A stretch of 32,000 bases of DNA from an uncultured Chloroflexia bacterium. Its GTDB lineage: Bacteria > Chloroflexota > Anaerolineae > Anaerolineales > Anaerolineaceae. The position numbers were made by a program, and so were the translations under genes. Each line of letters starts with the position of its first letter. The first letter of the stretch is position 1. Of this stretch, positions 967 through 16,576 are shown piece after piece. The DNA lies in contig OY969938.1 of assembly GCA_963704755.1 (NCBI GenBank), positions 390,001-422,000 of the forward strand, written 5' to 3'. The notes under the pieces are model-generated. The model was not told the DNA's origin. It worked only from the letters and a program-made list of their open reading frames with translations, and searched no databases.

Positions 967-971
967 GGCTC

Positions 972-2165
972 CTATTCGAGTGCTGGCTGAAGCAGTCGAT
1001 AAGCAGAAGCAGCCATAACGGCTACCGCATTGGGCAGCACCCGCTCGTCGAAATTGAAACGCGGATGGTGATGTCCAAAGTTCAAACCTGCCTCGGCGTT
1101 AGCGCTGCCCACCATGAAGAAGCAGCCGTGCACCTGCTCCATGATGTAAGCCATATCTTCCGAACCCATCACGCGGTAATTGGTGTCCAACTCCAGGTCA
1201 GGAAACTCACTTTTGACCACATTTTGAACCGTTACCGTCGTTTCGTTGTCATTGACCACCGCCGGAGTTAGCCGCTCGACACTTACCTCGGCTTTGCAGC
1301 CCATCCCGCTGGCCACAGATTTGACGATCTCGCTGAACCGTTTCAGCACCAGTTCTCTCACCGCCGGGTCAAAAGTTCTAATTGTACCGGCCAGTTCGGC
1401 GGTACCCGGGATGACGTTGAAGGCCGTCCCGGTATTGAACTGGGTCACACTCACGACGGCCGTTGCCAGCGGAGCCACGTTACGCGCAACGATACTTTGC
1501 AAAGCCGTCACCACCTGGGCCGCCGCCAGCACCGGGTCCTGGGTGGTTTCCGGCATGGCGCCATGGCCGCCTTTTCCGCTGATCTTGATATTAAAGACGT
1601 CCCCTCCGGCCATGATCGGACCGGTGGAAACGCCGATCCAGCCGACCGGTTTTTCGTTCCAGACGTGCAACCCCAGGGTGGTGTCCACCTCCGGCGCGTG
1701 CAGGATCCCTTCTGCGAGCATGCGCTCCGCCCCGCCACGCCCTTCTTCGGCCGGCTGAAAGATCAGCTTGACCGTTCCGTGCAGGTCGTCGCGGCATTCA
1801 TTGAGCAGCCGGGCCACGGTCAGCCCGATAGCCGTATGGCCGTCATGGCCGCAGGCGTGCATCACTCCGGTTTTTTCCGAGGCGTAATCGACTTTGTTTT
1901 CTTCGACGATCGGTAGGGCATCCATGTCAAAACGCAGCAAGACCACCGGTCCGGGATGTGCGCCTTCGATCATTGCCACCACGCCTGTCCCAGCCACGCC
2001 TGAGGCGACTTCGATGCCCAGCGAATTCAATTCCCTGGCCACGATACCAGACGTGCGGACTTCCTCGAATCCCAGTTCAGGATGGCGGTGAAAATCCCGC
2101 CTTAATCCACGGGTATACTCAAACAAGAGGTTGGCCTGCTCGAAAAAATTTGGGGTGTTGTTCAT
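972..2165 (-). CDS. M20D-family amidohydrolase (aminoacylase/hippuricase type)
   Basis: 397-aa ORF. Its ATG overlaps the upstream stop (ATGA at 2162-2165). Motifs MHACGHDGH, QPAEEGRGGAERM and GHHHPRFNFDE are typical of peptidase M20D. Confidence 0.85.
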   Translation of the reverse strand: MNNTPNFFEQANLLFEYTRGLRRDFHRHPELGFEEVRTSGIVARELNSLGIEVASGVAGTGVVAMIEGAHPGPVVLLRFDMDALPIVEENKVDYASEKTGVMHACGHDGHTAIGLTVARLLNECRDDLHGTVKLIFQPAEEGRGGAERMLAEGILHAPEVDTTLGLHVWNEKPVGWIGVSTGPIMAGGDVFNIKISGKGGHGAMPETTQDPVLAAAQVVTALQSIVARNVAPLATAVVSVTQFNTGTAFNVIPGTAELAGTIRTFDPAVRELVLKRFSEIVKSVASGMGCKAEVSVERLTPAVVNDNETTVTVQNVVKSEFPDLELDTNYRVMGSEDMAYIMEQVHGCFFMVGSANAEAGLNFGHHHPRFNFDERVLPNAVAVMAASAYRLLQPALE

Positions 2166-2905
2166 GCTAAGATTATTCTCCGGAAATTGTCCACGTAACG
2201 TGGGTTTTCTTCAGTACTGTCCGCCGTCCGGCGGGCTTTCTGGTTCTTCAAAAACGCCGGGATATCCGGGATCTGGCTGGCGTGCTTCTTGAGCGCCTCG
2301 ATGCGCTGGTCCCAGGTGTCGGTCACGTCGATGGCGGTATTGCCCTGGCTGGTCAGCGAGAACCAGATTTCGGACACACTGTGCGGTGCCAGGCCCTCGT
2401 TTAACAGCTCGGGGAAAAACATCGGATTGCCGCTGGCCGGGAACACGGCGTCCATCACGATTTGCCCGGCCGTACGGTGGTCGGGGTGATTCAACCGGCT
2501 CTCGCGAATAAAATAATTCTGCGGATCGCAGGTAACGACAATATCCGGCTTTTCCTGGCGGACGACCCGCACAATCGCTTTACGCTCTTCCAACCCGGCT
2601 TGCAGATAGCCATCCTCGTAGTCGAGGAAACGGACCTCGTTCACCCCCAGAACACGCGCAGCTTCTTTCTGCTCGATTTCACGCCTGGCCATCAATGCGG
2701 TTGCATCGACTGGCTGATCCCCCTGGATACCTTTGTCACCGCGGGTGAATAAACAATAGTGGACCCGGTGGCCATTCCGGGTCCAGCGAGCGATCGTTGC
2801 CCCACAAAAAAATTCCGGATCATCTGGATGGGCCAGGATGACCAGAATGTCTTTCGGCTCTTTCCAACTTTCAGGTTCGACGGGTTCCACGTCTTTTCCT
2901 CCCAT
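2162..2905 (-). CDS. PIG-L/LmbE-family N-acetylglucosaminyl deacetylase
   Basis: Signature ILVILAHPDDPEFFCGATIA plus NHPDHRTAG. The longest ORF reaches 2974 but would overlap the upstream gene by 104 nt, so the ATG at 2905 (MGGKDVEP) is preferred. The start is uncertain. Confidence 0.75.
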   Translation of the reverse strand: MGGKDVEPVEPESWKEPKDILVILAHPDDPEFFCGATIARWTRNGHRVHYCLFTRGDKGIQGDQPVDATALMARREIEQKEAARVLGVNEVRFLDYEDGYLQAGLEERKAIVRVVRQEKPDIVVTCDPQNYFIRESRLNHPDHRTAGQIVMDAVFPASGNPMFFPELLNEGLAPHSVSEIWFSLTSQGNTAIDVTDTWDQRIEALKKHASQIPDIPAFLKNQKARRTADSTEENPRYVDNFRRIILA

Positions 2906-3908
2906 AACGATTATTGTATTGTTGTTGGCCGCTTTTTGAGGCGCTGTCAGGATCGTTGTTGGGAGAGGTCTCATTGGTCGTTTCAGGTGTATCTTGCCCG
3001 TTCGCTTCTACTGCCGGGCTAACGTCTTCTTCCGTTTCGGATTTATTTGCCCGCGGATCAGGAACACCTTCGGGGCGCTGGTAGAAAGTCCGGATTTCTT
3101 CCCGCGTGAATTCTCGTACACCTATTTCCGGGATATCCACCTTCACGATTCCCTGAATCGGTTGGACATCGATAACTTTCCCTTCCCCAGCCGGGGTAGC
3201 CAACCGCTTGCCTCGTTTCGGCAAGCCCTTTCGGGCTTCGGCATAATTCTCGTATTCATAAATCAGGCAACAGCGCAGCCGGCCGCACATCCCGGTGATT
3301 TCTGTCGGCGTCAGCGAGATACCTTGCTCTTTGGCCATACGGATCGATATCGAACTGAAATCGGTCAAGAACTTCGAACAGCAGCGGCTTTCCAAACCAC
3401 AGGCACCCATACCGCCGATGATCTTGGCCACATCACGCGGACCAATCTGGCGTAAATCTACCTGGGCGGGTGTAAAAGTGCGCTGCATGTCCTGGCGCAA
3501 AGACTTGAGATCGACCTTTTCTTCCCCTTCCGAGGAATACAGGATGGTCAGGCGCGCGCCATCGAAGCTATATTCAGCCGAGACCACTTTGATATTTTGA
3601 ACCCGGATCTCCGCCGCGCGCTTTTTGCAAGTCTCGACGACATCATATTCCCGCAACTGCCAGACCTGCCTTAAAAGCAAATCCCGCGGTGAAGCCAGCC
3701 GGGAGACCAGCTTCCAGCCCCCTTCCGGGGGCTGGCCTGGATTTTGAACAACTTGTGCGACCTCGCCGATCTGCCATCCGCGCGATGTTTCGACGACAAC
3801 CGAATCCCCCTGGCGGACCTGGGATAGATTGGCAGCATCAAAATGGTATACTTTGCCTACCTTTGAAAAACGCAAACCAATCACCAGTGGGTCTTGAGCG
3901 CTATCCAT
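2871..3908 (-). CDS. PSP1 C-terminal domain protein (YaaT/RicT-like)
   Basis: 345-aa ORF starting with ATG at 3908. It has the Cys-rich PSP1 region CGLESRCCSKFL...GMCGRLRCCLIYEYENY and a low-complexity basic tail. Confidence 0.8.
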   Translation of the reverse strand: MDSAQDPLVIGLRFSKVGKVYHFDAANLSQVRQGDSVVVETSRGWQIGEVAQVVQNPGQPPEGGWKLVSRLASPRDLLLRQVWQLREYDVVETCKKRAAEIRVQNIKVVSAEYSFDGARLTILYSSEGEEKVDLKSLRQDMQRTFTPAQVDLRQIGPRDVAKIIGGMGACGLESRCCSKFLTDFSSISIRMAKEQGISLTPTEITGMCGRLRCCLIYEYENYAEARKGLPKRGKRLATPAGEGKVIDVQPIQGIVKVDIPEIGVREFTREEIRTFYQRPEGVPDPRANKSETEEDVSPAVEANGQDTPETTNETSPNNDPDSASKSGQQQYNNRYGRKRRGTRRT

Positions 3909-3910
3909 AA

Positions 3911-4993
3911 TTACCCGATCATTTCGATCTTTACACTGCTCTGATTTTTGAGGGCTTCGACACTCAACCGGGCAGCAAGTTGTTCCGCAACCGAATTCAG
4001 CGCTTTACCCGCTGCAGAATCCGGCTGGGAGATTACGATCGGGGCGCCTTCGTCACCCCCAATCCGTACAGATGGGTCCATCGGGATAGCACCCAGGAAC
4101 GGGTAATTACCGGCTTCGGCCATCTTTTTCCCGCCGCCTTGCCCAAATACATCCACCTGGGATCCATCGGGAAGTTCAAGGTAGCTCATATTTTCCACAA
4201 CACCCAGGATCGGGATGTTCAACTGTTCGAACATCTGGATTCCGCGGGTAGCATCTTCAACCGACACGGCCTGAGGCAGGGTGACGATCACGCCGCCACT
4301 CAACGGCAGAGATTGGGCCAGGCTCAATTGAGCATCGCCGGTTCCTGGCGGTAAATCGATGATCAGGTAGTCTAGCTCACCCCAATCGACATCGCCTAAA
4401 AATTGGCGAATCGCCGAGTGCAGCATCGGGCCACGCCAGATCAAAGCCCGGCCCGGCGGAACCAAAAACCCGATCGACATGATCTTGACGCCGTAATTTT
4501 CGGCCGGGGTGATGCGTTCGCCTTTCGAAAGGGGTAATTTTTCCACCCCCATCATGGTCGGCACATTCGGCCCGTAGATATCGGCGTCCAACAGGCCAAC
4601 TTTCGCCCCGGTCCTCGCCAGTGCAACCGCAATGTTGACCGAAACGGTGGTCTTTCCGACCCCGCCTTTGCCGGATGCGACCGCAACGGCGTTCTTGACC
4701 GGCAATTGCATTACACCTCGCGAACGACCGTCCGATGGGACGCTCGAATCCATCTTGATTTCGACTGTCTTCACCCCATCTACCGATAATACAGCTTGTT
4801 TTGTGTTTCTTTCCAGCACACCCTTCAGCGGGCAAGCGGGAGTTGTCAGGACCAGGTCGAACTTGACGTTGCCCTCGTTGATCTCCAGGTTACGGATCAT
4901 ATTGAGAGTGACCAGATCCTTATGAAGCTCGGGCTCCTGAACGGTGCTCAAAGCTGCCATAATCGCCTCTTTTGTAGGGGCTTGATTGTTCAT
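3911..4993 (-). CDS. Mrp/NBP35-family P-loop ATPase with N-terminal DUF59/MIP18-like domain
   Basis: 360 aa. It has a DUF59-type TTPACPLKG, the deviant Walker A VASGKGGVGKTT and a LIIDLPPGTGD switch. The CxxC normally found after ENMS is absent (VENMSYLELPDGSQVDVFGQGGG). Confidence 0.85.
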   Translation of the reverse strand: MNNQAPTKEAIMAALSTVQEPELHKDLVTLNMIRNLEINEGNVKFDLVLTTPACPLKGVLERNTKQAVLSVDGVKTVEIKMDSSVPSDGRSRGVMQLPVKNAVAVASGKGGVGKTTVSVNIAVALARTGAKVGLLDADIYGPNVPTMMGVEKLPLSKGERITPAENYGVKIMSIGFLVPPGRALIWRGPMLHSAIRQFLGDVDWGELDYLIIDLPPGTGDAQLSLAQSLPLSGGVIVTLPQAVSVEDATRGIQMFEQLNIPILGVVENMSYLELPDGSQVDVFGQGGGKKMAEAGNYPFLGAIPMDPSVRIGGDEGAPIVISQPDSAAGKALNSVAEQLAARLSVEALKNQSSVKIEMIG

Positions 4994-5023
4994 TGTAGAT
5001 GCCTTTCTTGAAAGAGCATAACT

Positions 5024-5341
5024 TTATTTACTCCGCATCTTGATGTATTTTTCAACCTCGGCACAGGATTGTTCGAATTGTTTGACCAATTCTTCATCGC
5101 TCCCTCGAAAACGGCGGATCGTCTGTTTTGCGCAAACTGTGCAGCCGTGCATACCCCTGAACGAATCGATACTACAACCCTGACAACCTCCCAGGCGGAC
5201 CATCATCAAAGTAAAACCCGCCTGCTTGACCAGGTCAGCATCGCTCGACCCTGCTTCGTCAACCAGCCTTTGCCAGACAACTCCACGTAACCCACGTAAT
5301 TGCGGAATAACGCGTGGAGGGAACATTAAACTCTGTGTCAT
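5024..5341 (-). CDS. Hypothetical small protein with two CxxC pairs (zinc-ribbon-like)
   Basis: 105-aa ORF with ATG at 5341. It contains CQGC-x10-CTVC. It sits in the same-strand block between nuoI and the Mrp-like gene. No family was recognised. Confidence 0.5.
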   Translation of the reverse strand: MTQSLMFPPRVIPQLRGLRGVVWQRLVDEAGSSDADLVKQAGFTLMMVRLGGCQGCSIDSFRGMHGCTVCAKQTIRRFRGSDEELVKQFEQSCAEVEKYIKMRSK

Positions 5342-5391
5342 TATTATACATGTCTGTCAAGTCAGATGCAAAGTGGATATTTCATGCCGAA

Positions 5392-6000
5392 TTATGCAGC
5401 TTTTTTGGCGGCTGCCTTCATAGCTTCCTTCTCGGCTCTGGCTTTTTCCTCAGCAACGTAATTCGTTGGGCGGATCGCTGCATAGTACGAAACCGGCTTG
5501 GACAGCTTTTCCATGTTGTAAATATGCTCGCTCATGCGGTCATACGATGCGATTTCGTAGTCATGGTCCATCTTGATCGCATCGAAGGGGCAGTATTCGG
5601 CACAGAAACCGCAATTCATGCAAATATCCACATCGATATAGAACTCCGCCGGCTCCGGGATCGGCTTACCTGTTTCAGGATCCGAGGTACGTACGATCCA
5701 GATGCATTGCGGCGGGCATACTTTCGCACAAATTCCGCACGAAGTACAGCGGGAGTGTTTCTCGCCATTTTCGTCTTCTTCATAAAGCAAGAAGGGGATA
5801 TAGCGAAACTCTTCGGGTACCGGCATTTTCTCTTCCGGGTACTGGATGGAAAAAATACCGGTTACATCGGTATTCTGGCGCAACTCGATCCCCTCTTTTG
5901 TATAGTAGCGCTTCTTACCGCGGCGGATATCCTCGATGTAAGTCAGCGAAAAGTGTCTAAAAGTCGTCCATAGACCCCGTAAAATTCCAGATCCATTCAT
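5392..6000 (-). CDS. nuoI: NADH-quinone oxidoreductase subunit I (2x[4Fe-4S] ferredoxin)
   Basis: 202 aa, with GGAGG upstream of the ATG at 6000. It carries two ferredoxin motifs, CTSCGICAKVCP and CMNCGFCAEYCP. It follows nuoCD directly. Confidence 0.85.
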   Translation of the reverse strand: MNGSGILRGLWTTFRHFSLTYIEDIRRGKKRYYTKEGIELRQNTDVTGIFSIQYPEEKMPVPEEFRYIPFLLYEEDENGEKHSRCTSCGICAKVCPPQCIWIVRTSDPETGKPIPEPAEFYIDVDICMNCGFCAEYCPFDAIKMDHDYEIASYDRMSEHIYNMEKLSKPVSYYAAIRPTNYVAEEKARAEKEAMKAAAKKAA

Positions 6001-6024
6001 TATTGCCTCCTCTGCTCCGCACCT

Positions 6025-7758
6025 TTAGCGGTCAACTTCACCTAACACAATATCGATCGAGCCGAGGATGGCAATCACATCGGCGACCTTCTCACCCCGG
6101 CACATATCCGCCAGGCTGGTCAAGTTGATGAAGGTTGGAGCGCGGACGTGATACCGCCATGGGTTGGGTTTCCCATTCGAAATCACGTAAAAGCCCAATT
6201 CACCTTTGGGGCTTTCCGTGCGCCCATAGGATTCACCAGCCGGGACGCGCACCTGGTACTGGGGCTTGGTCGACTGAATCGGCCCTTCGGGAATATCGCG
6301 GACGGCTTGCTGTAGAATCCGCAGACTCTGGCGCATTTCATCGATACGGACCAGGTAACGATCATAGATATCGCCGTGATAGCGGACGCACACGTCGAAA
6401 TCGAAGCGGTCGTAGATGCTGTAAGGAGCCGCGCGGCGGAGATCATAGGGAACACCGGAAGCGCGCAGTACCGGGCCGGTCGCCGAATTGGCGATAGCCT
6501 GCTCAGGCGTGAGAACCCCAACGCCTTCCGACCGCTCACGGATGATCTCGTTTGAGGTCAAGAAATTGTCCAGTTCATCGATCTTGCGCGGCAGGCGGTC
6601 GTAGGTCATGCGCTTGATTTTTTCGAGCACACCTTCCGGGAAATCACGGGCAACGCCGCCAAAACGGTAGTAGTTGCACATCATGCGCGAACCGGCCGTG
6701 GCCTCGAAGATATCCAGAATCAGTTCTCGTTCTTCGAGCGCGTACAGCACCGGGGTAAAGAACGCACCCAGGTCATTCAACAGGAAGCCAACCGCCACCA
6801 AATGGTTGAGGATACGGGTCAGTTCGGCCATGATCACGCGGATATATTCCGCCCGCTCGGTCGGCTGGACGCCCATCAACTTTTCGACCGTTACGGCATA
6901 GCCAAAATTGTTGGTCATCGAGCAAATGTAATCCAGGCGGTCGGTGAAAGGCATGTTCTGCAAGAACGTGTTCCGTTCCCCGATTTTTTCGTGGTTGCGG
7001 TGCAGATAGCCCATCACCGGCTTGAGATCGACTACTGTCTCGCCATCCATCACCGCAACCATGCGGAACACTCCGTGGGTCGAGGGATGCTGCGGGCCCA
7101 GGTTGATCACGATCTGTTCGGTCGCCAGGTCATCCGTCTTGTCGAGCTTTTTCATCCCCGCGTAAAGCAATGTTTCTTCATCGGGGATCCATTTTTCGGG
7201 ATCGAAATCTTTTGGATATTGGACATTACCGTTGAAAGGATTTTCGTCCTCGCTGCGGCGTACATGCCCATCTGGCCAGCGGCTCTTGAACGGTTTGGTC
7301 TCTTCCTCGAAATAGGGTTCATGCCAATCCTTTTGCAAAGGATGGCCGTAAAACCCTTCCCAGGTGAGGATCCGGCGCAGGTCAGGATGCCCTTCGAATT
7401 TGATTCCGATCAAATCCCAGGCTTCACGCTCCTGGAAGTCGGCGCCGGGATAGAGCGAGACCAGGGACGGGATGACCGGTTTTTCACGCGGCGTCTGCAC
7501 CTTGAGAGATATCCCCGGCCCGCCGATGGTGCGGTAGAAATGATAAACCGCCTCCAGAACGCCATCCGGCATGTAATCCACCCCGGTAACTGAGGAGAGC
7601 ATATCGAAACCGTACTCGTCGCGCAATTTTGCGGCCACATCCGGCAGGTGTTCGGCCGAGACCTTGTATCCGGAGTAGTTTGCCCGCGTATCGGCAGTCA
7701 CCCAATCCGGGTATATGGCTGCCAGGTCTAATTCGGTTGCAATCGTTAAATCACTCAT
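6025..7758 (-). CDS. nuoCD: Fused NADH-quinone oxidoreductase subunit C/D
   Basis: 577 aa. The N-terminal 30-kDa (NuoC) part contains [24 protein letters not shown]. The C-terminal 49-kDa (NuoD) part contains [15 protein letters not shown] and ends [12 protein letters not shown]. No NiFe-ligand cysteines are present. Confidence 0.9.
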
Positions 7759-7763
7759 TGCGA

Positions 7764-8423
7764 TCAGGCCTCCTCGCCGTTGACTGTTTCAGCCGGATCG
7801 GCCGGTTCTTCCTGGTGGGAAAGCGCATAGATCCGGGCGAATTTGGCCGGGTCCATCAAATCCGGTCCGAGGATGGGAATCGGCAGGGGTTGGCTGGGGC
7901 CTTTTTTGTACCAGGACACCTCTTTGAGCGATTGTTTTTCGATTTTCTTCATCAGGGCCATCAGACCGTTCATCAAAGCCTGGGGAGTTGGCGGGCAACC
8001 AGGGATGTAAACGTCCACCGGTACGAACTTATCCACCCCAGAGACGACCGTATACCCTTCTTTGAAGGGTCCACCACCCGAGGCACAGGCGCCCATGGCG
8101 ATCACATAGCGCGGCTCGGCCATCTGGTTGTACAGGCGCACGATCTGCGGGATCATTTTCTTGGTCACCGTGCCAGAAACGATCATCACATCACTCTGGC
8201 GCGGGCTGGGGCGCATGACCTCCATGCCAAACCGCGAAAAATCGTAGCGGCTGGCTGCCACCGCGATCATTTCGATCGCGCAACAGGCCAAACCAAACAT
8301 CATCGGCCAGATGGAGTTTTTACGGCTCCAGTTGTAGATCTTGTCAATCGTGGTAATGGCCACCTGGCCCTGCATTTCTGCCGGGATCGAGTAACCCTTA
8401 CTGTTAAGGTCTTCTGTTCCCAT
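7764..8423 (-). CDS. nuoB: NADH-quinone oxidoreductase subunit B (N2 cluster subunit)
   Basis: 219 aa with the NuoB cysteine motifs [19 protein letters not shown] and IPGCPP. There is a 5-nt gap to nuoCD. Confidence 0.9.
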
Positions 8424-8542
8424 TCCTTAACCTTTCATTTTTTCAATATCGGGGAAATAATTTCTAAACATACCAACGTTCATAATTTTACCTTAATCCC
8501 CTTGACTGTCAACGTGTCATTAAGCTAAAATATTTTTGCTTA

Positions 8543-9214
8543 ATGACCATTAGAATCCCAAATTTTCCCGATAGCAAACAAACGATGCCTGACGAAACCA
8601 CACGCGACCGGTTATTCCAATATCTTCAAATTCACCGCTCTGCGGATGTGCCCGAATTGAGCACAGCGCTGCAGGTCACCCGCCAGGATGTGCGCTACAA
8701 CCTCAATTTGTTAATAAGCTCCGGCCTGGTCCGGCGCGTTACAGATAAGGCGATTCACAATCCGCACAAGCCCGGCCGCCCCTCGGTATATTACTGCCTG
8801 GACCCGCAAACCCGGCCGGATAATTTGAATAATTTGGTCCGGGCTCTGCTAAAAACAACCTTCAGCGACGTCGATTTGCAAACCGGCTCAAACGAACCTC
8901 TCCAGAGGGTGGCCCAAATTCTGGCGGGACTGCCAGCGCCGGCAAGCGTTCCACGCAACCTACACGCCCGCTTGAACCTGGCCCTACAGGAGCTCAACCG
9001 CAACCAATACCGCGCTCACTGGGAAGCACGCCCGGACGGACCCTGCGTTCTTTTCGCCAATTGCCCCTACGCGGCCCTCCTGGCCGAATTTCCAATCCTA
9101 TGTGCCCTGGATGGCGAACTGCTCCATACCTTGACCGGCCGCCAGGTTCAGCAACTGGCTAAAATCGACCCGGCTGGCGGGTCGCCGCACCATTGCCTGT
9201 TCAAATTTATTTAG
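8543..9214 (+). CDS. Winged-helix (ArsR-like, COG2345-type) transcriptional regulator
   Basis: 223 aa. The N-terminal HTH-like region is RDRLFQYLQIHRSADVPELSTALQVTRQDVRYNLNLLISSGLVRRV. The C-terminal region is FANCPYAALLAEFPILCALDGELL. It is divergent from nuoB. The start is uncertain (alternative Met 14 codons in). Confidence 0.6.
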   Translation: MTIRIPNFPDSKQTMPDETTRDRLFQYLQIHRSADVPELSTALQVTRQDVRYNLNLLISSGLVRRVTDKAIHNPHKPGRPSVYYCLDPQTRPDNLNNLVRALLKTTFSDVDLQTGSNEPLQRVAQILAGLPAPASVPRNLHARLNLALQELNRNQYRAHWEARPDGPCVLFANCPYAALLAEFPILCALDGELLHTLTGRQVQQLAKIDPAGGSPHHCLFKFI

Positions 9215-9242
9215 AGTAAAGCCCGGGCTTTCAACCCAAGGG

Positions 9243-10510
9243 AACGCCTGCCTGGCGTATCCCCGGCTTTGAAAGCCGGACTACGCTACCAAAACACCGG
9301 TCCGGCCAGGCGCATGGAAAGGGCAATTTGATATTTCGACGTTCGGGCCGGTCTCCAGACCGAGCCCGCTCTTCAACACGAGCGTATCATTAAACCAACA
9401 TCCATCAGGTCGATTCCGACCCGGCTAAGCGCTTACCGAGCAGGATTTTAGCTAGGGGTGTAACCCTTGCCAAAAGAGAGACCCGCGCAGGTGGGTCTTT
9501 GTGTATTCGTAGGTGCAGCTTTAGCTGCAACCGGTTAGGTCAACGCATTAGGTTCAACCGCAATGCCTGATTGGCCAAACGCATTCCCGGCTTTGAAAGC
9601 CGGGCTACGCTACCAAAACACCGATCCGGCCAGGCGCATGGAAAGGGCAATTTGATATTTCGACGTTCGGGCCGGTCTCCAGACCGAGCCCGCTCTTCAA
9701 CACGAGTATATCGTCAAACCAACATCCATCGGGTCGATTCCAACCCGGCTAAGCGCCGGCCGGGCAGGATTTCTGGCTAGGGGTGTAACCCTTGCCAAAA
9801 GAGAGACCCACGCAGGTGGGTCTTTGTGTATTTGTAGGTGCAGCTTGAGCTGCAACCGGTTCGGTCAACGCATTGGGTTCATCAACCGCAATGCCTGATT
9901 GGCCAAACGCATTCCCGGCTTTGAAAGCCGGGCTACGCTACCAAAACACCGGTCCGGCCAGGCGCTTGGAAAGGGCAATTTGATAATTCGACGTTCGGGC
10001 CGGTCTCCAGACCGAGCCCGCTCTTCAACCTGAACATATCTCAAACCAACATCCATCAGGTCGATTCCAATCCGGCTAAGCGCTGGCCGGGCAGGATTCT
10101 GGCTAGGGGTGTAACCCTTGCCAAAAGAGAGACCCACGCAGGTGGGTCTTTGTGTATTTGTAGGTGTAGCTTGAGCTGCAACCGGTTCGGTCAACGCATT
10201 GGGTTCGTCAACCGCAATGCCTGATTGGCCAAACGCAATCCCGGCTTTAAAAGCCGGGCTACGCTACCGAAACGCCCAATCTGAGCCTACGCTTGGAAAG
10301 GGCAATTTGATAATTCGACGTTCGGGCCGGTCTCCAGACCGAGCCCGCTCTTCAACATGAAGATATCGTCAAACCAACATCCATCAGGTCGATTCCAACC
10401 CGGCTAAGCGCCGGCCGGGCAGGATTCTGGCGATGGGTGTAACCCTTGCCAAAAGAGAGACCCACGCAGGTGGGCCTTTGTGTTTTCGTAGGTGCAGCTT
10501 TAGCTGCCAA
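9243..10510 (+). repeat. Tandem array of four ~325-nt hairpin-rich non-coding units (possible tandem structured RNA genes)
   Basis: The landmark hairpin CCCGGCTTTGAAAGCCGGG recurs at 9262, 9586, 9914 and 10240, giving periods of 324, 328 and 326 nt. Copies are roughly 90-95% identical by eye. The last copy is truncated near 10510. The strand assignment is tentative and rests on G-U-compatible stem substitutions. Confidence 0.9.
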
Positions 10511-10542
10511 CAATCAACTCGAATCAGGCGAGGGGTGGGGTC

Positions 10543-11727
10543 TTACTCCCCCGCCCCCGAGCGGATCCACAACATGACCAGTTGCAGCTCGGCATCCAGC
10601 AGCTTGCCGGGATGGTTACCGCCCTGCACCATGGTAACCAGGGGGCTGCTCTGCGGATCACCGGGTACAATGACCGGCCCATTCAACCCACCTTTCATAA
10701 TATCCGCATAAGTCAGCACCGACAATTCGCCCATGGCCGTCTCGCCGTGACAGGTGCCGCAGCGCGCCTGCAAGATTGCGCTGATGCCCGTGTTCCAGGT
10801 CATCGGTACCAGGGTCGGGCTGCCGGGCAAAGTCGGCGCCGGTGTGGTGGTCGGCAGATGGGTAGCCAACGGAGTGGGGGTTTGCCGGGAGTAGGGTGTA
10901 CTGACCAACCCCTGCACCGGCGGGATGGTGGTCAGCGCAGTTTGCTCCAGCGAAACGAACCGGTATACCCCAAATACCAGCAGCACTGTCACGATACCGG
11001 CGATAGGGAAATAGATCGCCTGGCGTTTTTTTATTTCAGGCGCCGGCGGCAATGGCTTTTCGCCCCCGGAGTCCATTTCTTCCATCTCGAGCTCGTGCTC
11101 TTCTTCCATCTGGTCACGCGACATCTTACCGGTGAACATGCTCGCGTTCCAGTGCTTGATATGAACGTTGTAAAAATGCCAGATGATGATCGCCAGCACG
11201 GCCAGGATGGCCTCAGCCCCATGCGCAGCCTTGGCGGCCGGGACGAATTGTCCCGGCAAAATATCGGTCACACGGATCGGGTTCCACATCATGAAACCGG
11301 TAATGGCCATGATGGCCAATCCCCAGACCAGTGCCCAATACTCCATCTTCTCACCGAAGTTATAACGCCCCATCTTAGGCCGTTCTTTGGCCAGGCCCAG
11401 GTTGTAGAGCAGGTTCTGGATGAAATCGCGCAGGTCCTGATAACCCGGCAGCATGGTCGGCTCTTTGCGCTGCACGTACAGCTTATAGCCAATTTCGATC
11501 AGGTGGTAGATCGATTGCAGCATGAAGATAACCGCGGCGGTGCGGTGGATAATGCGGGTAATCTGAATCCCGCCCAGGAAGGTGATTATCGATATCGCCA
11601 CCGAGGTCTGCGAAAACTTCTGCGCTAGCCCGGTCACGGCCAGAGTGGTGAAGGTCAGGATCAGGACGATGTGCTCGATACGCTGGAGGATATTAAAGCG
11701 AGGATAGGCTTTTTTCGACTGTGCCAT
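10543..11727 (-). CDS. Cytochrome b (FdnI/HydC-like, 4 TM) fused to a C-terminal monoheme cytochrome c domain
   Basis: 394 aa, with AGGAGG upstream of the ATG at 11727. The N-terminus reads YPRFNILQRIEHIVLILTFTTLAVTGL, and conserved His residues lie in the TM helices. A fifth TM helix follows. The C-terminus reads CGTCHG...GGLNGPVIVPGDPQSSPL (PSCyt1-like c-type domain). Confidence 0.8.
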   Translation of the reverse strand: MAQSKKAYPRFNILQRIEHIVLILTFTTLAVTGLAQKFSQTSVAISIITFLGGIQITRIIHRTAAVIFMLQSIYHLIEIGYKLYVQRKEPTMLPGYQDLRDFIQNLLYNLGLAKERPKMGRYNFGEKMEYWALVWGLAIMAITGFMMWNPIRVTDILPGQFVPAAKAAHGAEAILAVLAIIIWHFYNVHIKHWNASMFTGKMSRDQMEEEHELEMEEMDSGGEKPLPPAPEIKKRQAIYFPIAGIVTVLLVFGVYRFVSLEQTALTTIPPVQGLVSTPYSRQTPTPLATHLPTTTPAPTLPGSPTLVPMTWNTGISAILQARCGTCHGETAMGELSVLTYADIMKGGLNGPVIVPGDPQSSPLVTMVQGGNHPGKLLDAELQLVMLWIRSGAGE

Positions 11728-11729
11728 GG

Positions 11730-12989
11730 CTAATCCTCCTTCCCCTCTTCCAATCCGCTGGCGGAATCAGGCGGCGCGTTCTCTGGCTGCGAATTTCCCG
11801 TATCTGCCTCATTCTTGGGTGACTCGGGCAGCGGCCCTTCAGGCGCCGGCGGGGCCAGCTTCTTGCGCCGGTTCACCACCGTCTTGCGGTAGATATCGCT
11901 AACCACAAAGACACCCATCACCCCCAGCACGCCCGGGATGAAGAATTTATAGAACAGGTTGACGTAATACACCACCGGGTATTTGGTTGGGCTGGGGATG
12001 TAGTGGCTCAACCAGGCATCCGGAAAATTGGTCGTGGCATCCGGATGGCAGCGCTGGCAGGCCGCCAAAATATTTTGCTTGATCTCCAGGCCTTTGTTGG
12101 GGTCATCGACTTTGGCGATGTTATGCACCCCGTGGCAGTCGTAGCAGACTGGTACGTTGACCGCCTGGTCCGGGTCGATTTTATCGAAGAGCGCATAAGT
12201 CGTCCCGTGGAAATCGGACAGGTAAGTGGACAGGACTTGCGTCGAAATACCATACTTATCCATAATGGCTTTGTTGGTATGGCAGCTTGCGCAAATTTGC
12301 GGCGAGGACAGCCGGAAAGTATTGTTCCCCTCCGGCCCGGCGATGGTATGCACCCCGTGGCAGTCGATACAGGAGGGCACATCCGGGTTTTTATCCACCA
12401 TCACGCCTTGCCCGTGCACACTGTTGAGGTATTCTTCATAAATTGTATTATGGCATTGGGCGCAGACCAGGGCCGTGGCCGCATGTTCGGCCGGGGTTAA
12501 TTTGCCATCAGCCGTTTTTTGAATAATCGTTTGGGTGTGGGGGTTGTGGCAGTCGGCGCAGATCGGCGCGTTCGTGTTGCCGGCCTGCATGATCTTCGTA
12601 TGGGCGCTGTCCATCAATTCATTTTTCTGGGTAGGATGGCACTGGTTGCAGGTACTGGTATATTGCAGGGTATATTCGCGGTGGCTCTGAGCGCTGTTTT
12701 GCGGATGGGGATAATCGCTGATATTCGTGTGGCAGACCTGGCAGTCCAGGGTCGCATGGGCCGAATTGCCATAGTGATTGGGGTCTACGGTTACCGAGAT
12801 CACATCCCCGTTGGGAAACGCCATAGTGATGTCCGGCTGCAAGTGGCAGCTCAGGCATTTGGCGTTATTGGGCAGTTGAGCAGCCGGCGCGTTGACCGCA
12901 TCGGCGGCCACCGGCCGGCCGTTCTTGCCCAGCACAAAGACCACCCCAATCACCAGGATAACTGCCAGCAGGCTGATTACCGGGATCAA
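11730..12989 (-). CDS. Nonaheme c-type cytochrome with N- and C-terminal TM anchors
   Basis: 419 aa with nine CxxCH motifs: CLSCH, CQVCH, CNQCH, CADCH, CAQCH, CIDCH, CASCH, CYDCH and CQRCH. The only in-frame start after the upstream stop is TTG at 12989, with no nearby SD, so the start has moderate confidence. Confidence 0.8.
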   Translation of the reverse strand: MIPVISLLAVILVIGVVFVLGKNGRPVAADAVNAPAAQLPNNAKCLSCHLQPDITMAFPNGDVISVTVDPNHYGNSAHATLDCQVCHTNISDYPHPQNSAQSHREYTLQYTSTCNQCHPTQKNELMDSAHTKIMQAGNTNAPICADCHNPHTQTIIQKTADGKLTPAEHAATALVCAQCHNTIYEEYLNSVHGQGVMVDKNPDVPSCIDCHGVHTIAGPEGNNTFRLSSPQICASCHTNKAIMDKYGISTQVLSTYLSDFHGTTYALFDKIDPDQAVNVPVCYDCHGVHNIAKVDDPNKGLEIKQNILAACQRCHPDATTNFPDAWLSHYIPSPTKYPVVYYVNLFYKFFIPGVLGVMGVFVVSDIYRKTVVNRRKKLAPPAPEGPLPESPKNEADTGNSQPENAPPDSASGLEEGKED

Positions 12990-13092
12990 AAGGTGAGATC
13001 GATTAAATCGTTAAACCCCATCCAGAATGGTTCTCCTTTGCGAAAGAGGCCCTCCATCCACAACAGGTGGAGGGCCTCTTTTCAATCATGTA

Positions 13093-15297
13093 CTATTGGC
13101 CGGTAGTAGCCGGCCGGACCATCTTGGACATATCTACAGGAACCTCTTTGCCCAGGTCCTGAATGGAATCGTACAAGACTTGCAGCAGATATTTACCGTT
13201 ATGCGCGAATCCGCCCGGATCCTTCATCGAGTATTGGTAATTGTAGGCGGCCTCCATCAAACGAGGCGACCAGGCCGTATAGCCGGTCTCGCCTGCATCC
13301 ACCACACCATTATTATTGGCATCGACGAAGAAGTAGGGGTATGCCTCCGGTGAGTAAGCGATTGGCGTCTGAAGTACCTGGCTGGCATACGCCTGGATGG
13401 TGGTCAGCAGGGTCGCGGTCATGGTATCGACCTCACCCTTCAGGCCTTCCTGGGTATTGCCGTCGCCATCGTAATCGATGCGGGGATCTTCGTAACGGAT
13501 ATCGGCGATATTTTCAACCTGGTGACAGGCCTTGCAAGCGCCTTCGTTGACTTGTTGCGTGTGGGCGTCATGGCAGTCTGCGCAGGTCGAATAATCCGGA
13601 ATGTGCATGAACTGGCCCAGGTATTCTTTACCCGGGTATTCATACACGCCTTTGGCCTCGGTGCCGAACAGGGTTGCCCCGGCGGCGAAGTAGTGCACAT
13701 TCTTGAACCCTAACGAATCGGAAGGCTTATCCGGATCGAGCCCGCTGACTGCCTTGGATACACTCACGGTCGATTCGCGTCCCTGGTGGCAGTTCAGGCA
13801 CAGGTTCGAGGCGTTGTCGCCTTCGAAGCCCAGCTTGGCGCCGCTCGGGAAGGTCACCAGATCGACCTGGTAAACCGCAAAGGTATTCAGATCGGTGTGG
13901 CAGGTTTCGCACATCAAGCCATCCGATACCGGCTGAGAGGTGTTGACCCCTTCGGTGAGGTACTGCGGCAGCCCCTGGGCCGAATGGCACTTCGCACAGG
14001 TGGAAGGCACGCTCCCATCCGCATCCCAATGGCGGAAGGGCTCGGAAGCGCCATCGAAGTGGCCGGCGCTCTCGCGATGCAGCGCCGAGATATCCATCGG
14101 CGAAGGCAGCGCCGAATTCAGGTCTGCGATCGAATCGTACATCAATTCGATGACATATTTGGCCCCATGGGCATAACTGCCCGGGTCCTTGACCACCGTC
14201 TGGTAGTTATAGGCCGCCTTCAACAAACGTGGGGTGAACGACACATACTTGTTTTTGGCAACGGCCTCACCATCATCCACCTGGCCGTTGGCATTGGTAT
14301 CGATAAAGAAATAAGGATAAGCGTCTTCCGAGTATATGATCGGCGAACCGGCCACATCCCGGGCATAGGCCTGGATTTGCTGGTAGAGAATACTCTCGAC
14401 GCCAGCTACCTCGTAGTAGGTCCCTTCGGTGACGTTGCCATCGCCGTCGTAATCGACCAGAGAAGCATTGGTACGGATGTTCTTCAAATCATCCACCGTT
14501 TTAACATCCCTGTGAGTGACAGGGTTCTCGTGACAGTTGCTGCATTCATTAACTTTCACCTGCAGCGAGTGCGGATCATGACAGTCCTGGCAGTTCTGGT
14601 AACCGGTCACGTGGTCAAAACGCACATCATAGGTCTTGCCATCGTACTGGTATCCGCCGGCTACCAGTGAGCCATAGCGGGCTACTGAAGCGGCATAGTA
14701 ATGAATATTGATAAAGCCCAGCGATGGGACGACCGTGTCGTCATTGGCTGCCCCGGAACTGGCAATGGCATCATTCACCTGAACCATCGAAGCGCTGCCC
14801 TGGTGACAGGTCATGCAGACCGCTTCCCGGCCCAACCCGGTCAATTCGGCCCCCGACGGGAACTTGACGGAGGTCAAGGCTTCGGTAGCCGGGCTGTGGC
14901 AGGTCTTGCAATCGATAACCGTCCCGATCGGCGCCGCATTTTCTACACTAAAAACCGCGCTCCCATCCGCACCCACGTAATCCTCAAAGCCGGTCGAACT
15001 GTGGCACTTTGCACATTCTACCGGTACTACTGCCGGGTCGGCCGTATTCCAATGGTTGAACGCCTCTGCCGTCGAATCGGCATGACTGGAACCGGCCCAC
15101 AACGAATAGAAGGGGATCATGTCGCTCATATCGGTTGGCGCCGGGCAGGCGGCGGCTGTGGGACAGGCAGCGACCGTCGGTTGTGGTTCAGGTGTCTGCG
15201 TGGCCGTGGGTGTAACGGTTGAACAAGATGCCAGAACCAGTCCAAGGACTGCTGCAAGACCGGCTAACAGCAGGGCCTTCAGGAGTCTTTTTGTCAT
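13093..15297 (-). CDS. Decaheme c-type cytochrome lipoprotein with internal pentaheme duplication
   Basis: Ten CxxCH motifs. The ATG at 15297 is preceded by GGAG and gives MTKRLLKALLLAGLAAVLGLVLASC (signal peptide plus lipobox LASC). The track start at 15342 is a TTG extension. Confidence 0.85.
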   Translation of the reverse strand: MTKRLLKALLLAGLAAVLGLVLASCSTVTPTATQTPEPQPTVAACPTAAACPAPTDMSDMIPFYSLWAGSSHADSTAEAFNHWNTADPAVVPVECAKCHSSTGFEDYVGADGSAVFSVENAAPIGTVIDCKTCHSPATEALTSVKFPSGAELTGLGREAVCMTCHQGSASMVQVNDAIASSGAANDDTVVPSLGFINIHYYAASVARYGSLVAGGYQYDGKTYDVRFDHVTGYQNCQDCHDPHSLQVKVNECSNCHENPVTHRDVKTVDDLKNIRTNASLVDYDGDGNVTEGTYYEVAGVESILYQQIQAYARDVAGSPIIYSEDAYPYFFIDTNANGQVDDGEAVAKNKYVSFTPRLLKAAYNYQTVVKDPGSYAHGAKYVIELMYDSIADLNSALPSPMDISALHRESAGHFDGASEPFRHWDADGSVPSTCAKCHSAQGLPQYLTEGVNTSQPVSDGLMCETCHTDLNTFAVYQVDLVTFPSGAKLGFEGDNASNLCLNCHQGRESTVSVSKAVSGLDPDKPSDSLGFKNVHYFAAGATLFGTEAKGVYEYPGKEYLGQFMHIPDYSTCADCHDAHTQQVNEGACKACHQVENIADIRYEDPRIDYDGDGNTQEGLKGEVDTMTATLLTTIQAYASQVLQTPIAYSPEAYPYFFVDANNNGVVDAGETGYTAWSPRLMEAAYNYQYSMKDPGGFAHNGKYLLQVLYDSIQDLGKEVPVDMSKMVRPATTGQ

Positions 15298-15400
15298 TTC
15301 GACTTCTCCATTTACGTTTTTGGGAGTTGGGGTATTTTTCAAAGAGAAAAAGCGATTTGGTGCTTTAATGGACTATTTTTCCTCCTTTTAGTTGATTAAA

Positions 15401-15511
15401 GGTAACTACTCAGGCTAGGTCGGAAATTAAGGGTGTTTTATGTTTTTTCGCGTGCGAAGCACGCGAAAAAACATAAAACACCCCTCTCTTTTGCGATAGC
15501 TGAACAGTGAC
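15401..15511. repeat. Nested-palindrome (MITE-like) element, copy A
   Basis: The outer imperfect inverted repeats are GGTAACTACTCAG and CTGAACAGTGAC. They enclose a perfect 25-bp stem with a 3-nt loop (15431-15483). The element is flanked by the direct repeat GATTAAA (15394-15400 and 15512-15518). Confidence 0.7.
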
Positions 15512-15826
15512 GATTAAAATATCATTAGAAAAATTATACCCATCCACAAAATTAATTCAAGATTAATGCAGCATGAATAAGGTATTAAATGTAATTTTAG
15601 GAAGAAAGTCACATTTCAATTTTGTAAGGTTAACTTTTAGCCGGTTAGTCGGGTCATTTAATGGCTGATTTTTGGAATTCCGGGTTCCATTTTATGATCG
15701 CCCTGGAAGATTAATCCAGAATAGGCTATAACTAATAAATCCGCAGCTTTCAGGGCTTTGAAGCGCTCTGTTCATTAGAAAGAATGCGGGAATCCTATAT
15801 GAGAAATAAGAAAACCAATCATTAAC

Positions 15827-16447
15827 ATGAATCCCAACATTCATCTAACCGAAAATACAAAATTCCCTTCGATTTGTGTCTATGCCGGATCCGCAGACGG
15901 GCTGGCCGACGATTATTTGCAAGGCGCCTACACGCTGGGACAGACCCTGGCTCAAAACGGGATCGCGCTGGTATACGGCGCCGGCAAAACCGGTATGATG
16001 GGCGCCCTGGCAGATGGAGTGTTGCAGACCGGCGGCAAGGTCATCGGCGTCGTCCCGAAAAACCTGAACCAACCCCAATTGATCCACTCGGGGCTGACCG
16101 AATTGGAAGTGCTGCCGGATATTCAGAAGCGTAAGGCCCGTATGAGCGAACTGGCTTCCGGCTTTATCGCCTTGCCGGGCGGCTACGGCACCTTCGACGA
16201 GCTGTTCGAAACCCTTACCTGGGCCCAGCTCCGGATTCATCACAAGCCGGTGGGGTTATTGAACCTGCGCGGTTATTTCGACCTGCTCCTGGGCATGATC
16301 CAGCACGCCAGCGCCGAGGGTTTCATTTATGCCGAGCACCTGGACCTGATGGTTTCGAGCGCTTCTCCCAGCGAACTCCTCGAACAGATGAGCGCCTACC
16401 AGACCCCCGCCGGCCTGGAGCGTTGGGTCAGCCGCAGCGACGTTTAA
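15827..16447 (+). CDS. LOG-family (TIGR00730) nucleotide 5'-monophosphate nucleosidase / cytokinin riboside 5'-monophosphate phosphoribohydrolase-like
   Basis: 206 aa with motifs YGAGKTGMMGA and PGGYGTFDELFE. Confidence 0.85.
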   Translation: MNPNIHLTENTKFPSICVYAGSADGLADDYLQGAYTLGQTLAQNGIALVYGAGKTGMMGALADGVLQTGGKVIGVVPKNLNQPQLIHSGLTELEVLPDIQKRKARMSELASGFIALPGGYGTFDELFETLTWAQLRIHHKPVGLLNLRGYFDLLLGMIQHASAEGFIYAEHLDLMVSSASPSELLEQMSAYQTPAGLERWVSRSDV

Positions 16448-16576
16448 TAAAACAAATTCATGCGAAGAACATAACCCTGGGGTGCTTGTCTGGTGTGGTA
16501 AGCCATCTCAAACAACCGCCCTAAAGAAGACACTTCGGTGAAAGGTTCCTTTTTCGAACCGGCCTGATAAGGAAAT

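What the first reader, a model, noticed from the sequence alone, without database searches (positions are those of the whole stretch)
9243..10510. Four tandem ~325-nt hairpin-rich units filling a convergent intergenic gap: candidate array of structured RNAs
Seen in sequence:
- The whole 1.3-kb gap between two gene 3' ends (stops at 9214 and 10543) is four head-to-tail copies of one unit. Landmark starts are 9262, 9586, 9914 and 10240.
- The periods are 324, 328 and 326 nt, so not multiples of 3. The track ORFs inside are not conserved between copies, so the array is non-coding.
- Each unit repeats the same ordered set of GC-rich hairpins:
  - CCCGGCTTTGAAAGCCGGG
  - CGGGCCGGTC-TCCA-GACCGAGCCCG
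  - CCCGGC-N9-GCCGGG
  - AGAGACCCAC-GCAG-GTGGGTCTTT, followed by GTGTATTTGT (terminator-like on the + strand)
  - TGCAGC-TTGA-GCTGCA
  - GCATTGGGTT-CATC-AACCGCAATGC
- Three copy-specific stem substitutions (G at 9485, T at 10167, T at 10071 or 10084) all give G-U pairs if the + strand is the RNA. On the - strand they would be A-C mismatches.
- Sequence variation clusters in a ~20-nt stretch after CTCTTCAAC.

Established: tandem arrays of individually terminated sRNA genes exist, for example NsiR1 in Nostoc.

Inference: this is either a multi-copy structured ncRNA locus or a satellite-like structural DNA element. I do not recognise it as any named RNA family.
Basis: partly seen in the sequence, partly recalled or inferred. 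Interest (0 to 1): 0.8.

Follow-up and report, generated by a model that had tools for sequence, protein, structure and literature searches.

The report
Tandem repeat built around mobile hairpin
The 1.3-kb gap between two converging genes of an Anaerolineae bacterium is a lineage-specific, non-coding tandem repeat whose only conserved piece is a small hairpin from a mobile repeat family found across the phylum Chloroflexota, so it looks like repeat-derived satellite DNA and not an array of RNA genes.

Summary
The array is real: 3.8 head-to-tail copies of a ~326-nt hairpin-rich unit at 9262-10507, 93% alike, non-coding, with no Rfam match.

The organism is an Anaerolineae (Chloroflexota). Its relatives keep the same gene order, but their convergent gap is only 40-54 nt, so the array is a lineage-specific insertion.

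No whole-unit homologue turned up in the DNA k-mer scans of genomes and metagenomes, in blastn of plasmids and phages, or in two searches for spurious ORFs among public proteins.

Only one 25-nt hairpin (CGGGCCGGTC-TCCA-GACCG-N-GCCCG) is shared with other genomes. It belongs to a Chloroflexota-wide dispersed palindromic repeat family. The family occurs as inverted pairs, as a 142-bp MITE with 12-bp terminal repeats and 8-bp target duplications, and in tandem arrays of 38-254 nt period.

Among the four copies there are no compensatory changes. Wobble-kept and broken pairs are equal on both strands, so the + strand G-U argument fails.

Best reading: repeat-derived (BIME/satellite-like) intergenic DNA whose hairpins may act passively as stacked bidirectional terminators. 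An sRNA gene array is not excluded but has no positive support.

The parts
8543..9214 (+). Left flanking gene: HTH (MarR/ArsR-like) regulator. Its 3' end faces the array and its C-terminus is intact compared with relatives.
9218..9231 (.). Palindrome AAAGCCCGGGCTTT directly after the stop codon. It is the equivalent of the single A-tract/stem/T-tract hairpin that fills the whole gap in relatives, so probably the native bidirectional terminator.
   Evidence: (terminator-like site 9240-9222 on the - strand)
9232..9261 (.). Degenerate partial unit that resembles the 3' end of the unit and its first hairpin.
   Evidence: I8, I24
9262..9585 (.). Unit 1 (324 nt). Edge copy, 93% identical to unit 2 and 87% to unit 4. 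Its CCCGGC-N9-GCCGGG hairpin is disrupted.
9586..9913 (.). Unit 2 (328 nt).
9914..10239 (.). Unit 3 (326 nt), 95% identical to unit 2.
10240..10507 (.). Unit 4, truncated after ~268 nt (it lacks the last hairpin). It has a copy-specific diverged patch at ~10268-10292.
9344..9368 (+). Family hairpin CGGGCCGGTC-TCCA-GACCG-A-GCCCG, copy 1. The other copies are at 9668-9692, 9996-10020 and 10323-10347. All four are singlets without the inverted partner.
   Evidence: 48.6 bits, E 2e-7 each
9668..9692 (+). Family hairpin, copy 2.
9996..10020 (+). Family hairpin, copy 3.
10323..10347 (+). Family hairpin, copy 4.
9378..9391 (.). Hypervariable 13-14-nt patch after CTCTTCAAC. The other copies are at 9702-9715, 10030-10042 and 10357-10370.
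9477..9500 (.). Bidirectional terminator-like hairpin AGAGACCC(A/G)C-GCAG-GTGGGTCTTT, with an A-rich stretch before it and a T-rich stretch after it. The other copies are at 9802-9825, 10128-10151 and 10456-10479.
   Evidence: scored on both strands
9445..9473 (-). Promoter-like site TTGGCA-17-TAAAAT on the - strand, directly after the terminator-like hairpin. Weaker copies (TTGGCA-17-CAGAAT) are at 10096-10124 and 10424-10452. These are consensus matches only.
   Evidence: 4 sites found in 9000-10800, 0.8 expected
10508..10542 (.). Unique right flank between the array and the stop codon of the cytochrome b gene.
10543..11727 (-). Right flanking gene: cytochrome b561 fused to a PSCyt1 domain, last gene of a multihaem cytochrome operon. 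Its 3' end faces the array.

Best explanation
The array is lineage-specific, non-coding repeat DNA. A ~326-bp intergenic segment contained one copy of a Chloroflexota-wide mobile palindromic hairpin and a bidirectional terminator-like hairpin. That segment was duplicated and then amplified head-to-tail to about four copies, probably by unequal exchange or replication slippage (inferred), between the native terminator of the HTH gene and the stop codon of the cytochrome b gene. It is a long-period relative of the mosaic and tandem clusters that this hairpin family forms in other Chloroflexota, and so resembles BIME-type or satellite-type DNA. Any RNA from it is most likely read-through 3' UTR of the two converging genes. 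On that RNA the repeated A-tract/GC-stem/T-tract hairpins would act as stacked bidirectional terminators or 3'-end stabilisers (inferred, not shown). Shown here: the array, its non-coding nature, its absence from relatives, the family membership of the hairpin, and the mobility of one subfamily. Inferred: how the array was amplified, and any terminator or insulator effect.
For: (1) In eight syntenic loci from the nearest relatives (~60% protein identity) the gene order is identical, but the gap between the cytochrome b and HTH genes is 40-54 nt and holds one terminator-like hairpin. A unit profile finds nothing in those loci and the hairpin model finds none there. (2) Only unit positions ~61-115 match anything elsewhere (nhmmer). 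(3) The 18-mer hairpin core hit 113 genome loci. In 69 Chloroflexota loci, 81 of 88 hits have the closing helix and 13 loci are multi-copy. In 44 loci of other phyla the figures are 2 of 44 and 0. (4) 68 of 113 hairpins have an inverted partner within 160 nt. One MAG carries the hairpin on at least 17 contigs. Its 142-bp subfamily has 12-bp TIRs and perfect 8-bp target-site duplications in 9 of 12 complete copies. (5) 15 of 79 Chloroflexota loci have tandem arrays that contain the hairpin. (6) Genes flanking the hairpin are unrelated: 149 Pfam families among 103 neighbours. (7) In the window, interior units are most alike (95%) and edge units most diverged (87%), as expected for an array homogenised by unequal exchange. 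(8) There are no compensatory changes and no strand bias among the copies. (9) The terminator-like hairpin scores on both strands.
Against: The window's unit is much longer than the arrays seen elsewhere (326 nt against 38-254 nt). It carries one singlet hairpin per unit, not dense inverted pairs, so the hairpin may be a passenger and not the cause of the amplification. The other five hairpins of the unit have no known relatives. The copies differ by 5-13%, yet a 43-nt block around the hairpin is invariant and variation is clustered. That could mean selection on something unidentified. The - strand promoter-like sites exceed chance (4 against 0.8). No transposase was linked to the family. The source genome beyond the 32-kb window could not be read.
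Confidence: 0.6

Rival explanations
1. The array is a set of independently transcribed, individually terminated structured sRNA genes (NsiR1-like arrangement). The hypervariable patch would be a target-recognition or otherwise diversifying segment.
For: Each unit has a terminator-like hairpin. On the - strand that hairpin is followed directly by TTGGCA-17-(TAAAAT/CAGAAT), which would give ~290-nt transcripts. Folding z-scores are -5.5 and -6.4. Variation is concentrated in a 14-nt patch next to a 43-nt invariant block. Two pairs that link the patch to the segment upstream of the hairpin stay paired through one-sided changes on the + strand (pairs 75-122 and 78-119).
Against: There is no Rfam match, even at E<=10. 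The array is absent from syntenic relatives. No whole-unit homologue was found. None of 105 (+) or 108 (-) predicted pairs is compensatory, and wobble versus broken counts are equal on both strands. Palindromic DNA gives equally strong z-scores on both strands without any RNA function.
Confidence: 0.17
2. Each ~326-bp unit is itself a non-autonomous mobile element, and the array arose by repeated insertion next to itself or by rolling-circle or one-ended transposition, not by recombination.
For: The hairpin family includes a proven MITE. Arrays are common in the family. The array is an insertion relative to related genomes.
Against: There are no terminal inverted repeats or target-site duplication at the unit or array borders (GGCGTATC against CAACAATC). 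There is no other copy of the unit in the window. No transposase lies in the window. The gradient with interior copies most alike fits unequal exchange better.
Confidence: 0.1
3. The array is a DNA-level protein-binding platform, for example repeated operators for the adjacent HTH regulator or a nucleoid or segregation protein.
For: It sits next to an HTH gene. There are four identical 43-nt blocks with a palindrome. The hairpin is conserved as sequence more than as structure across the family.
Against: Relatives have the same HTH gene without the array. The location between two 3' ends is an unusual place for operators. The same palindrome lies next to unrelated genes in other genomes.
Confidence: 0.05

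Closest known systems
REP / REPIN elements and their BIME clusters (Enterobacteria, Pseudomonas; survey in PMC3733652)
   Same: A short (~25 nt) imperfect palindrome with a bulge, many extragenic copies per genome, frequent inverted doublets, and a tendency to form clusters and tandem arrays. The window's array lies downstream of converging genes, which PMC3733652 names as a preferred REP location (across this family, gap types showed no such bias). Proposed roles are termination and mRNA 3'-end stabilisation.
   Different: The tag next to the partner is mostly GTGG, not GTAG. No RAYT gene was found. The core sequence is identical over 18 nt across several classes of a phylum, whereas REPs are usually species- or genus-specific. 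The window's unit is ~326 nt with one singlet hairpin, far longer than BIME units.
MITEs (miniature inverted-repeat transposable elements)
   Same: One subfamily that carries the hairpin pair is a textbook MITE: 142 bp, 12-bp TIRs, 8-bp target-site duplications, no coding capacity, at least 12 copies in one MAG.
   Different: The window's unit and array have no TIRs or target-site duplication. The same hairpin also occurs outside TIR-bounded elements, so it behaves as a module shared by several repeat types.
   Same: Head-to-tail non-coding repeats, each with a terminator-like hairpin.
   Different: In NsiR1-type arrays each repeat is a small gene with its own mapped promoter, and the RNA is conserved among related strains (general knowledge, not checked here). 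Here transcription is unknown, there is no conservation outside this genome, and there is no covariation.
Chloroflexi-1 and other Rfam motifs
   Same: Multi-copy hairpin motifs in Chloroflexota.
   Different: No match at gathering score or at E<=10 in the window. No match at gathering score in 19 loci that carry the hairpin family.

Membership tests
REP/REPIN | Short (20-40 nt) imperfect palindrome able to form a stem-loop | tested here: met
   25-nt hairpin: two 5-bp helices, a 1-nt variable bulge and a TCCA loop. 97% of cells are paired across 102 distinct copies.
REP/REPIN | Many extragenic copies dispersed in one genome | tested here: inconclusive
   Met in MAG H23_299 (at least 17 contigs) and other Chloroflexota, next to unrelated genes. 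In the source genome only the 32-kb window could be read, and there the copies lie only in the array.
REP/REPIN | Conserved GTAG (or CGTC) tetranucleotide at one end | tested here: not met
   The tag before the inverted partner is mostly GTGG; GTAG was seen once in 66. No such tag lies next to the window's hairpins.
REP/REPIN | Inverted doublets (REPINs) | tested here: inconclusive
   68 of 113 family hairpins have the partner within 160 nt. The window's four are singlets.
REP/REPIN | Cognate RAYT (Y1 transposase) gene flanked by the repeats | not tested
   No transposase appears among the 25 listed (most recurrent) Pfam families of the 103 flanking ORFs; the rest of the 149 families were not shown. 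One apparent candidate turned out to be unrelated housekeeping genes. Whole genomes could not be scanned.
MITE | Terminal inverted repeats plus target-site duplication around a short non-coding element | tested here: not met
   Met for the 142-bp subfamily elsewhere. Not met for the window's unit or array borders.
Tandem sRNA gene array (NsiR1-like) | Own promoter and terminator in every repeat | tested here: inconclusive
   Consensus-like promoter and terminator sites occur on the - strand only, and no promoter-like site on the + strand. Consensus matches are not evidence of function.
Tandem sRNA gene array (NsiR1-like) | Conservation of the RNA in related genomes, with covariation that supports the fold | tested here: not met
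   Absent from relatives, no homologues found, 0 compensatory pairs.
Tandem sRNA gene array (NsiR1-like) | Discrete unit-length transcripts | not testable with these tools
   No expression data are available.
Any Rfam 15 family | Covariance-model score at or above the gathering threshold | tested here: not met
   0 hits in the whole window. Only E>1 noise in the array. ARAGORN finds no tRNA or tmRNA.

The most novel reading that the evidence does not exclude
The 25-nt hairpin is a functional module used across Chloroflexota and not just a selfish palindrome. It could be a recognition site for a conserved but unidentified protein, or a structured RNA element. In that reading the window's array is a transcribed battery of ~300-nt structured RNAs, each pairing the invariant hairpin block with a rapidly diverging 14-nt patch. 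That would be a new class of repeat-borne regulatory RNA, or a REPIN-like system with its own partner enzyme in a phylum where none has been described.
Probability: 0.12. Interest if true: 0.7.

Novelty: new variant of a known kind. Interest (0 to 1): 0.35.

Why it matters
For genome annotation, this shows that a striking "array of structured RNAs" can be repeat-derived DNA. Synteny with relatives and the distribution of each module settle the question faster than folding statistics, which are equally extreme on both strands of palindromic DNA.

The side result may be more useful than the array. A 25-nt hairpin with an 18-nt core identical across Anaerolineae, Caldilineales, Thermoflexia, Ardenticatenaceae and Chloroflexia occurs as MITE cargo, as inverted pairs and as tandem arrays. 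It is not in Rfam, and I found no description of it in the searchable literature. It breaks short-read assemblies (the Logan contig ends inside the array). It could also serve as a marker for Chloroflexota contigs and as a starting point for finding the transposase or host factor that recognises it.

Tried and rejected
1. Geobacter origin, guessed from the multihaem cytochromes. Rejected: the nearest proteins are from Anaerolineae.
2. First genome scan with GACCGAGCCCGCTCTTCAAC: 0 hits.
3. Plasmid and phage blastn with the unit, and plasmid blastn with the MITE consensus: no match.
4. Viral-contig scan with the hairpin core: one hit without the family architecture, treated as chance.
5. Spurious-ORF trick with the 109-aa unit-spanning ORF. 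Nothing in the word-indexed search. In the exhaustive search there were two weak hits. One is a real PKD-repeat protein. The other is an ORF across an unrelated 180-nt x 4.3 tandem repeat in a planctomycete-like contig with no DNA similarity to the unit. Both are chance matches inflated by repetition.
6. The idea that the hairpin marks a transcript 5' end just after a -10 box (GATATT, GATACT or CATATT upstream in some metagenome singles). Not general: most genome copies have GC-rich CCGGCT or CCCGCT upstream.
7. The idea that a ~240-aa ORF next to hairpin subfamily B is a RAYT. Rejected: the ORFs are HrcA, cytidylate kinase and a methyltransferase, unrelated to each other.
8. Search for an autonomous element with the MITE's TIRs in the fetched loci: none has a target-site duplication.
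9. tRNA-like reading (tRNA-Sec hits at E~2). ARAGORN finds nothing.
10. Small-protein reading of the conserved 32-aa - strand ORF. The copies differ only by non-synonymous changes and unit 4 is truncated.
11. Resemblance of the hairpin to the tRNA-Trp anticodon arm: a recollection only, not pursued.
12. The look-up of encoding contigs could not return the 4.87-Mb source contig, so dispersed copies in the source genome remain unknown.

Full report
**Observation**

Tandem Repeats Finder reports a single large array in the window at 9262-10507: period 328, 3.8 copies, 93% matches. A four-way alignment confirms unit starts at 9262, 9586, 9914 and 10240, and shows that unit 4 stops after ~268 nt. 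The array lies between the stop codon of a 223-aa HTH (MarR/ArsR-like) gene (8543-9214, +) and the stop codon of a cytochrome b561/PSCyt1 gene (10543-11727, -). That gene closes a multihaem cytochrome operon.

ORFs inside the array are short and differ between copies. The best-conserved one (32 aa, - strand) differs only by non-synonymous changes and is truncated in unit 4. There is no tRNA or tmRNA. No Rfam family matches, either at gathering score over the whole window or at E<=10 over the array.

**Organism and synteny**

I first guessed Geobacter from the cytochromes. That was wrong. The cytochrome b protein is on record, identical, on a 4.87-Mb contig, and its next relatives (~57-61% identity) are Anaerolineae/Chloroflexota.

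In eight loci from those relatives the gene order is the same over ~20 kb: multihaem cytochromes, cytochrome b, HTH gene, Ech/complex-I-like hydrogenase genes, an Fe-S assembly ATPase, and so on. The convergent gap between cytochrome b and the HTH gene is only 40, 51 or 54 nt. It holds one A-tract/stem/T-tract hairpin.

The window keeps an equivalent palindrome (AAAGCCCGGGCTTT, 9218-9231) right after the HTH stop. The HTH protein's C-terminus aligns to the end with its relatives. So the 1.25-kb array is a lineage-specific insertion between the native terminator and the cytochrome b stop. A short-read (Logan) contig of the same organism ends ~98 nt past the cytochrome b stop, inside the array, as expected for a real repeat.

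**Homologues of the unit**

- A profile of the four units finds nothing in the rest of the window or in the syntenic relatives.
- The unit has no blastn match in the plasmid or phage collections.
- A 20-mer spanning the hairpin's 3' half and CTCTTCAAC has no match in 185,579 species-representative genomes.
- The 109-aa ORF that spans a whole unit has no relative among 5.8 billion clustered proteins.
- In an exhaustive HMMER scan of 1.84 billion representatives it has only two chance hits. One of them is an ORF over an unrelated 180-nt tandem repeat with no DNA similarity to the unit.

As far as these collections show, the 326-nt unit as a whole is unique to this lineage.

**The one shared piece**

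A metagenome scan with the 5' part of the second hairpin (TTCGGGCCGGTCTCCAGACC) returned ten contigs with GC content from 58% to 70% (the window itself is 52%).

The hits split cleanly:
- In 69 Chloroflexota loci (Anaerolineae, Caldilineales, Thermoflexus/Thermoflexia, Ardenticatenaceae, Chloroflexia), 81 of 88 hits have the full architecture gCT-CGGGC-CGGTC-TCCA-GACCG-N-GCCCG, and 13 loci hold several copies.
- In 44 loci from other phyla, 2 of 44 hits have it, none is multi-copy, and most lie in coding-like sequence.

A covariance model of the hairpin scores the window's four copies at 48.6 bits (E~2e-7). It finds 160 copies in 602 kb of mostly Chloroflexota DNA, and none in the five syntenic-relative loci that were searched.

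**What the hairpin family is**

- 68 of 113 hairpins are followed within 160 nt by their inverted partner (CGGTC(T)GGAGACCGGCC plus ACAGC). The preferred distances are ~14, ~28 and ~68 nt. This is a REPIN-like doublet.
- One Anaerolineae MAG (H23_299) carries the hairpin on at least 17 contigs. Sixteen copies define a discrete element with 12-bp terminal inverted repeats (GTAACTACCCAG...CTGGGTAGTTAC). Of 12 complete copies, 10 are 142 bp long and 9 have perfect 8-bp target-site duplications. That subfamily is a genuine MITE.
- Genes next to the hairpins are unrelated: 149 Pfam families among 103 neighbours, none in more than three. The gap types are 24 tandem, 7 divergent and 5 convergent. It is therefore not a leader or riboswitch of any gene family.
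- 15 of 79 Chloroflexota loci have tandem arrays that contain the hairpin, with periods of 38-254 nt and 2-3.9 copies. GC-rich metagenome contigs show mosaics of this and other modules.
- Across 102 distinct copies the stem is 97% paired, but only 2 of 10 pairs show any double change (6 cells). The element is conserved as sequence. That fits spread by copying or sequence-specific recognition.
- The family is not in Rfam.
- I found no description of it in the searchable literature. The 2013 REP survey lists Chloroflexi GTAG-REPs only for Chloroflexus aggregans and Thermomicrobium roseum.
- The tag next to the partner is mostly GTGG and not GTAG. No transposase could be linked. One apparent candidate turned out to be three unrelated housekeeping genes, and no autonomous element lies in the fetched loci.

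**RNA or DNA, and which strand**

Both strands of a unit fold far better than shuffles (z = -5.5 and -6.4). That is what palindromic DNA gives regardless of function.

RNAalifold on the four copies predicts 105 pairs on the + strand and 108 on the - strand, and none has a compensatory change. Cells kept by a one-sided (wobble) change against broken cells number 13 to 10 on + and 12 to 11 on -. They are offset by A-C mismatches on the + strand at 9280, at 10475, in unit 1's disrupted CCCGGC-N9-GCCGGG hairpin and in the last hairpin. The strand argument therefore fails.

The terminator-like hairpin (A-rich stretch, AGAGACCCAC-GCAG-GTGGGTCT, T-rich stretch) is scored on both strands. Promoter-like sites occur only on the - strand, directly after that hairpin (4 found in 9000-10800, three of them inside the array, against 0.8 expected). 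If the units were genes, the - strand would be the more coherent reading, not the + strand.

**Internal evolution of the array**

Units 2 and 3 are 95% identical. The edge units are more diverged (u1-u4 87%). This is the usual signature of homogenisation by unequal exchange in the interior of an array. It also shows that the array is not a very recent duplication.

Variation is clustered (p = 0.005) in the 14-nt patch after CTCTTCAAC and in copy-specific patches of units 1 and 4. The longest invariant run (43 nt, p = 0.018) is the family hairpin with its flanks. No explanation offered here accounts for this patchiness. It is the main reason a functional reading is not excluded.

**Conclusion**

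The most economical account is repeat-derived intergenic DNA. A segment holding a singlet copy of a mobile Chloroflexota palindrome and a bidirectional terminator-like hairpin was amplified about fourfold in one lineage.

It works like BIME/REP clusters and small satellites. It is not a member of REP sensu stricto (no GTAG tag, no RAYT shown). It is not a MITE (no TIR or target-site duplication at its borders), although its hairpin belongs to a family that includes one.

The likely consequence is extra, redundant termination or 3'-end protection for the two converging transcription units. That step is inferred. An array of sRNA genes remains possible (about one chance in six) but lacks every kind of comparative support that could be tested here.

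Noticed in passing
L020, L030, L042, L044, L060, L120, L121, L127, L132 (Anaerolineae MAG H23_299, DAOTYA01 contigs): A 142-bp MITE with 12-bp terminal inverted repeats (GTAACTACCCAG...CTGGGTAGTTAC) and perfect 8-bp target-site duplications. It carries the hairpin and its inverted partner ~68 nt apart. No transposase partner was identified.
   Followed up: yes
window 15402-15413 and 19419-19430: The identical 12-mer GTAACTACTCAG occurs twice, inside a shared ~24-nt motif TTGAWAAAKGGTAACTACTCAGSC. Both sites are intergenic. The 12-mer is one mismatch from the MITE's terminal repeat, so these may be solo ends or remnants of that family in the source genome.
   Followed up: partly
window 15431-15483: A perfect 25-bp inverted repeat with a 3-nt loop (GGGTGTTTTATGTTTTTTCGCGTGC / GCACGCGAAAAAACATAAAACACCC). 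It lies in the divergent gap upstream of the multihaem cytochrome operon and a LOG-family gene.
   Followed up: no
window 19761-19892: A degenerate 8/24-nt tandem repeat (GGTGGTTC, 16.5 copies, 71% matches) in the intergenic region upstream of ORF 20092-21423, which has no Pfam match.
   Followed up: no
L010 9135-10000, L018 200-1190 (also L013, L017, L019): GC-rich (68-70%) metagenome contigs with intergenic mosaics that mix the hairpin with other short modules such as GAAGTCCCGGCCTTTCGGGAAGACACGGCCGCAAC. The hairpin spacings are 174-390 nt.
   Followed up: partly
L016 ~2850-2950 (- strand): Tandem variant hairpins GGACCGGTCTCCAGACCGGTCC. The outer helix is changed on both sides and the bulge is lost, while the inner stem and TCCA loop are kept.
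   Followed up: no
L134 5851-6621: An unrelated 180-nt x 4.3 intergenic tandem repeat (94% matches) in a planctomycete-like contig, annotated there as a 212-aa protein. It has no DNA similarity to the window's unit.
   Followed up: yes
window 1-16500 compared with L002-L009: About 20 kb of gene order is conserved across Anaerolineae despite only ~60% protein identity: multihaem cytochrome operon, HTH regulator, Ech/complex-I-like hydrogenase subunits, Fe-S assembly ATPase, PSP1, PIG-L and M20 peptidase genes.
   Followed up: partly
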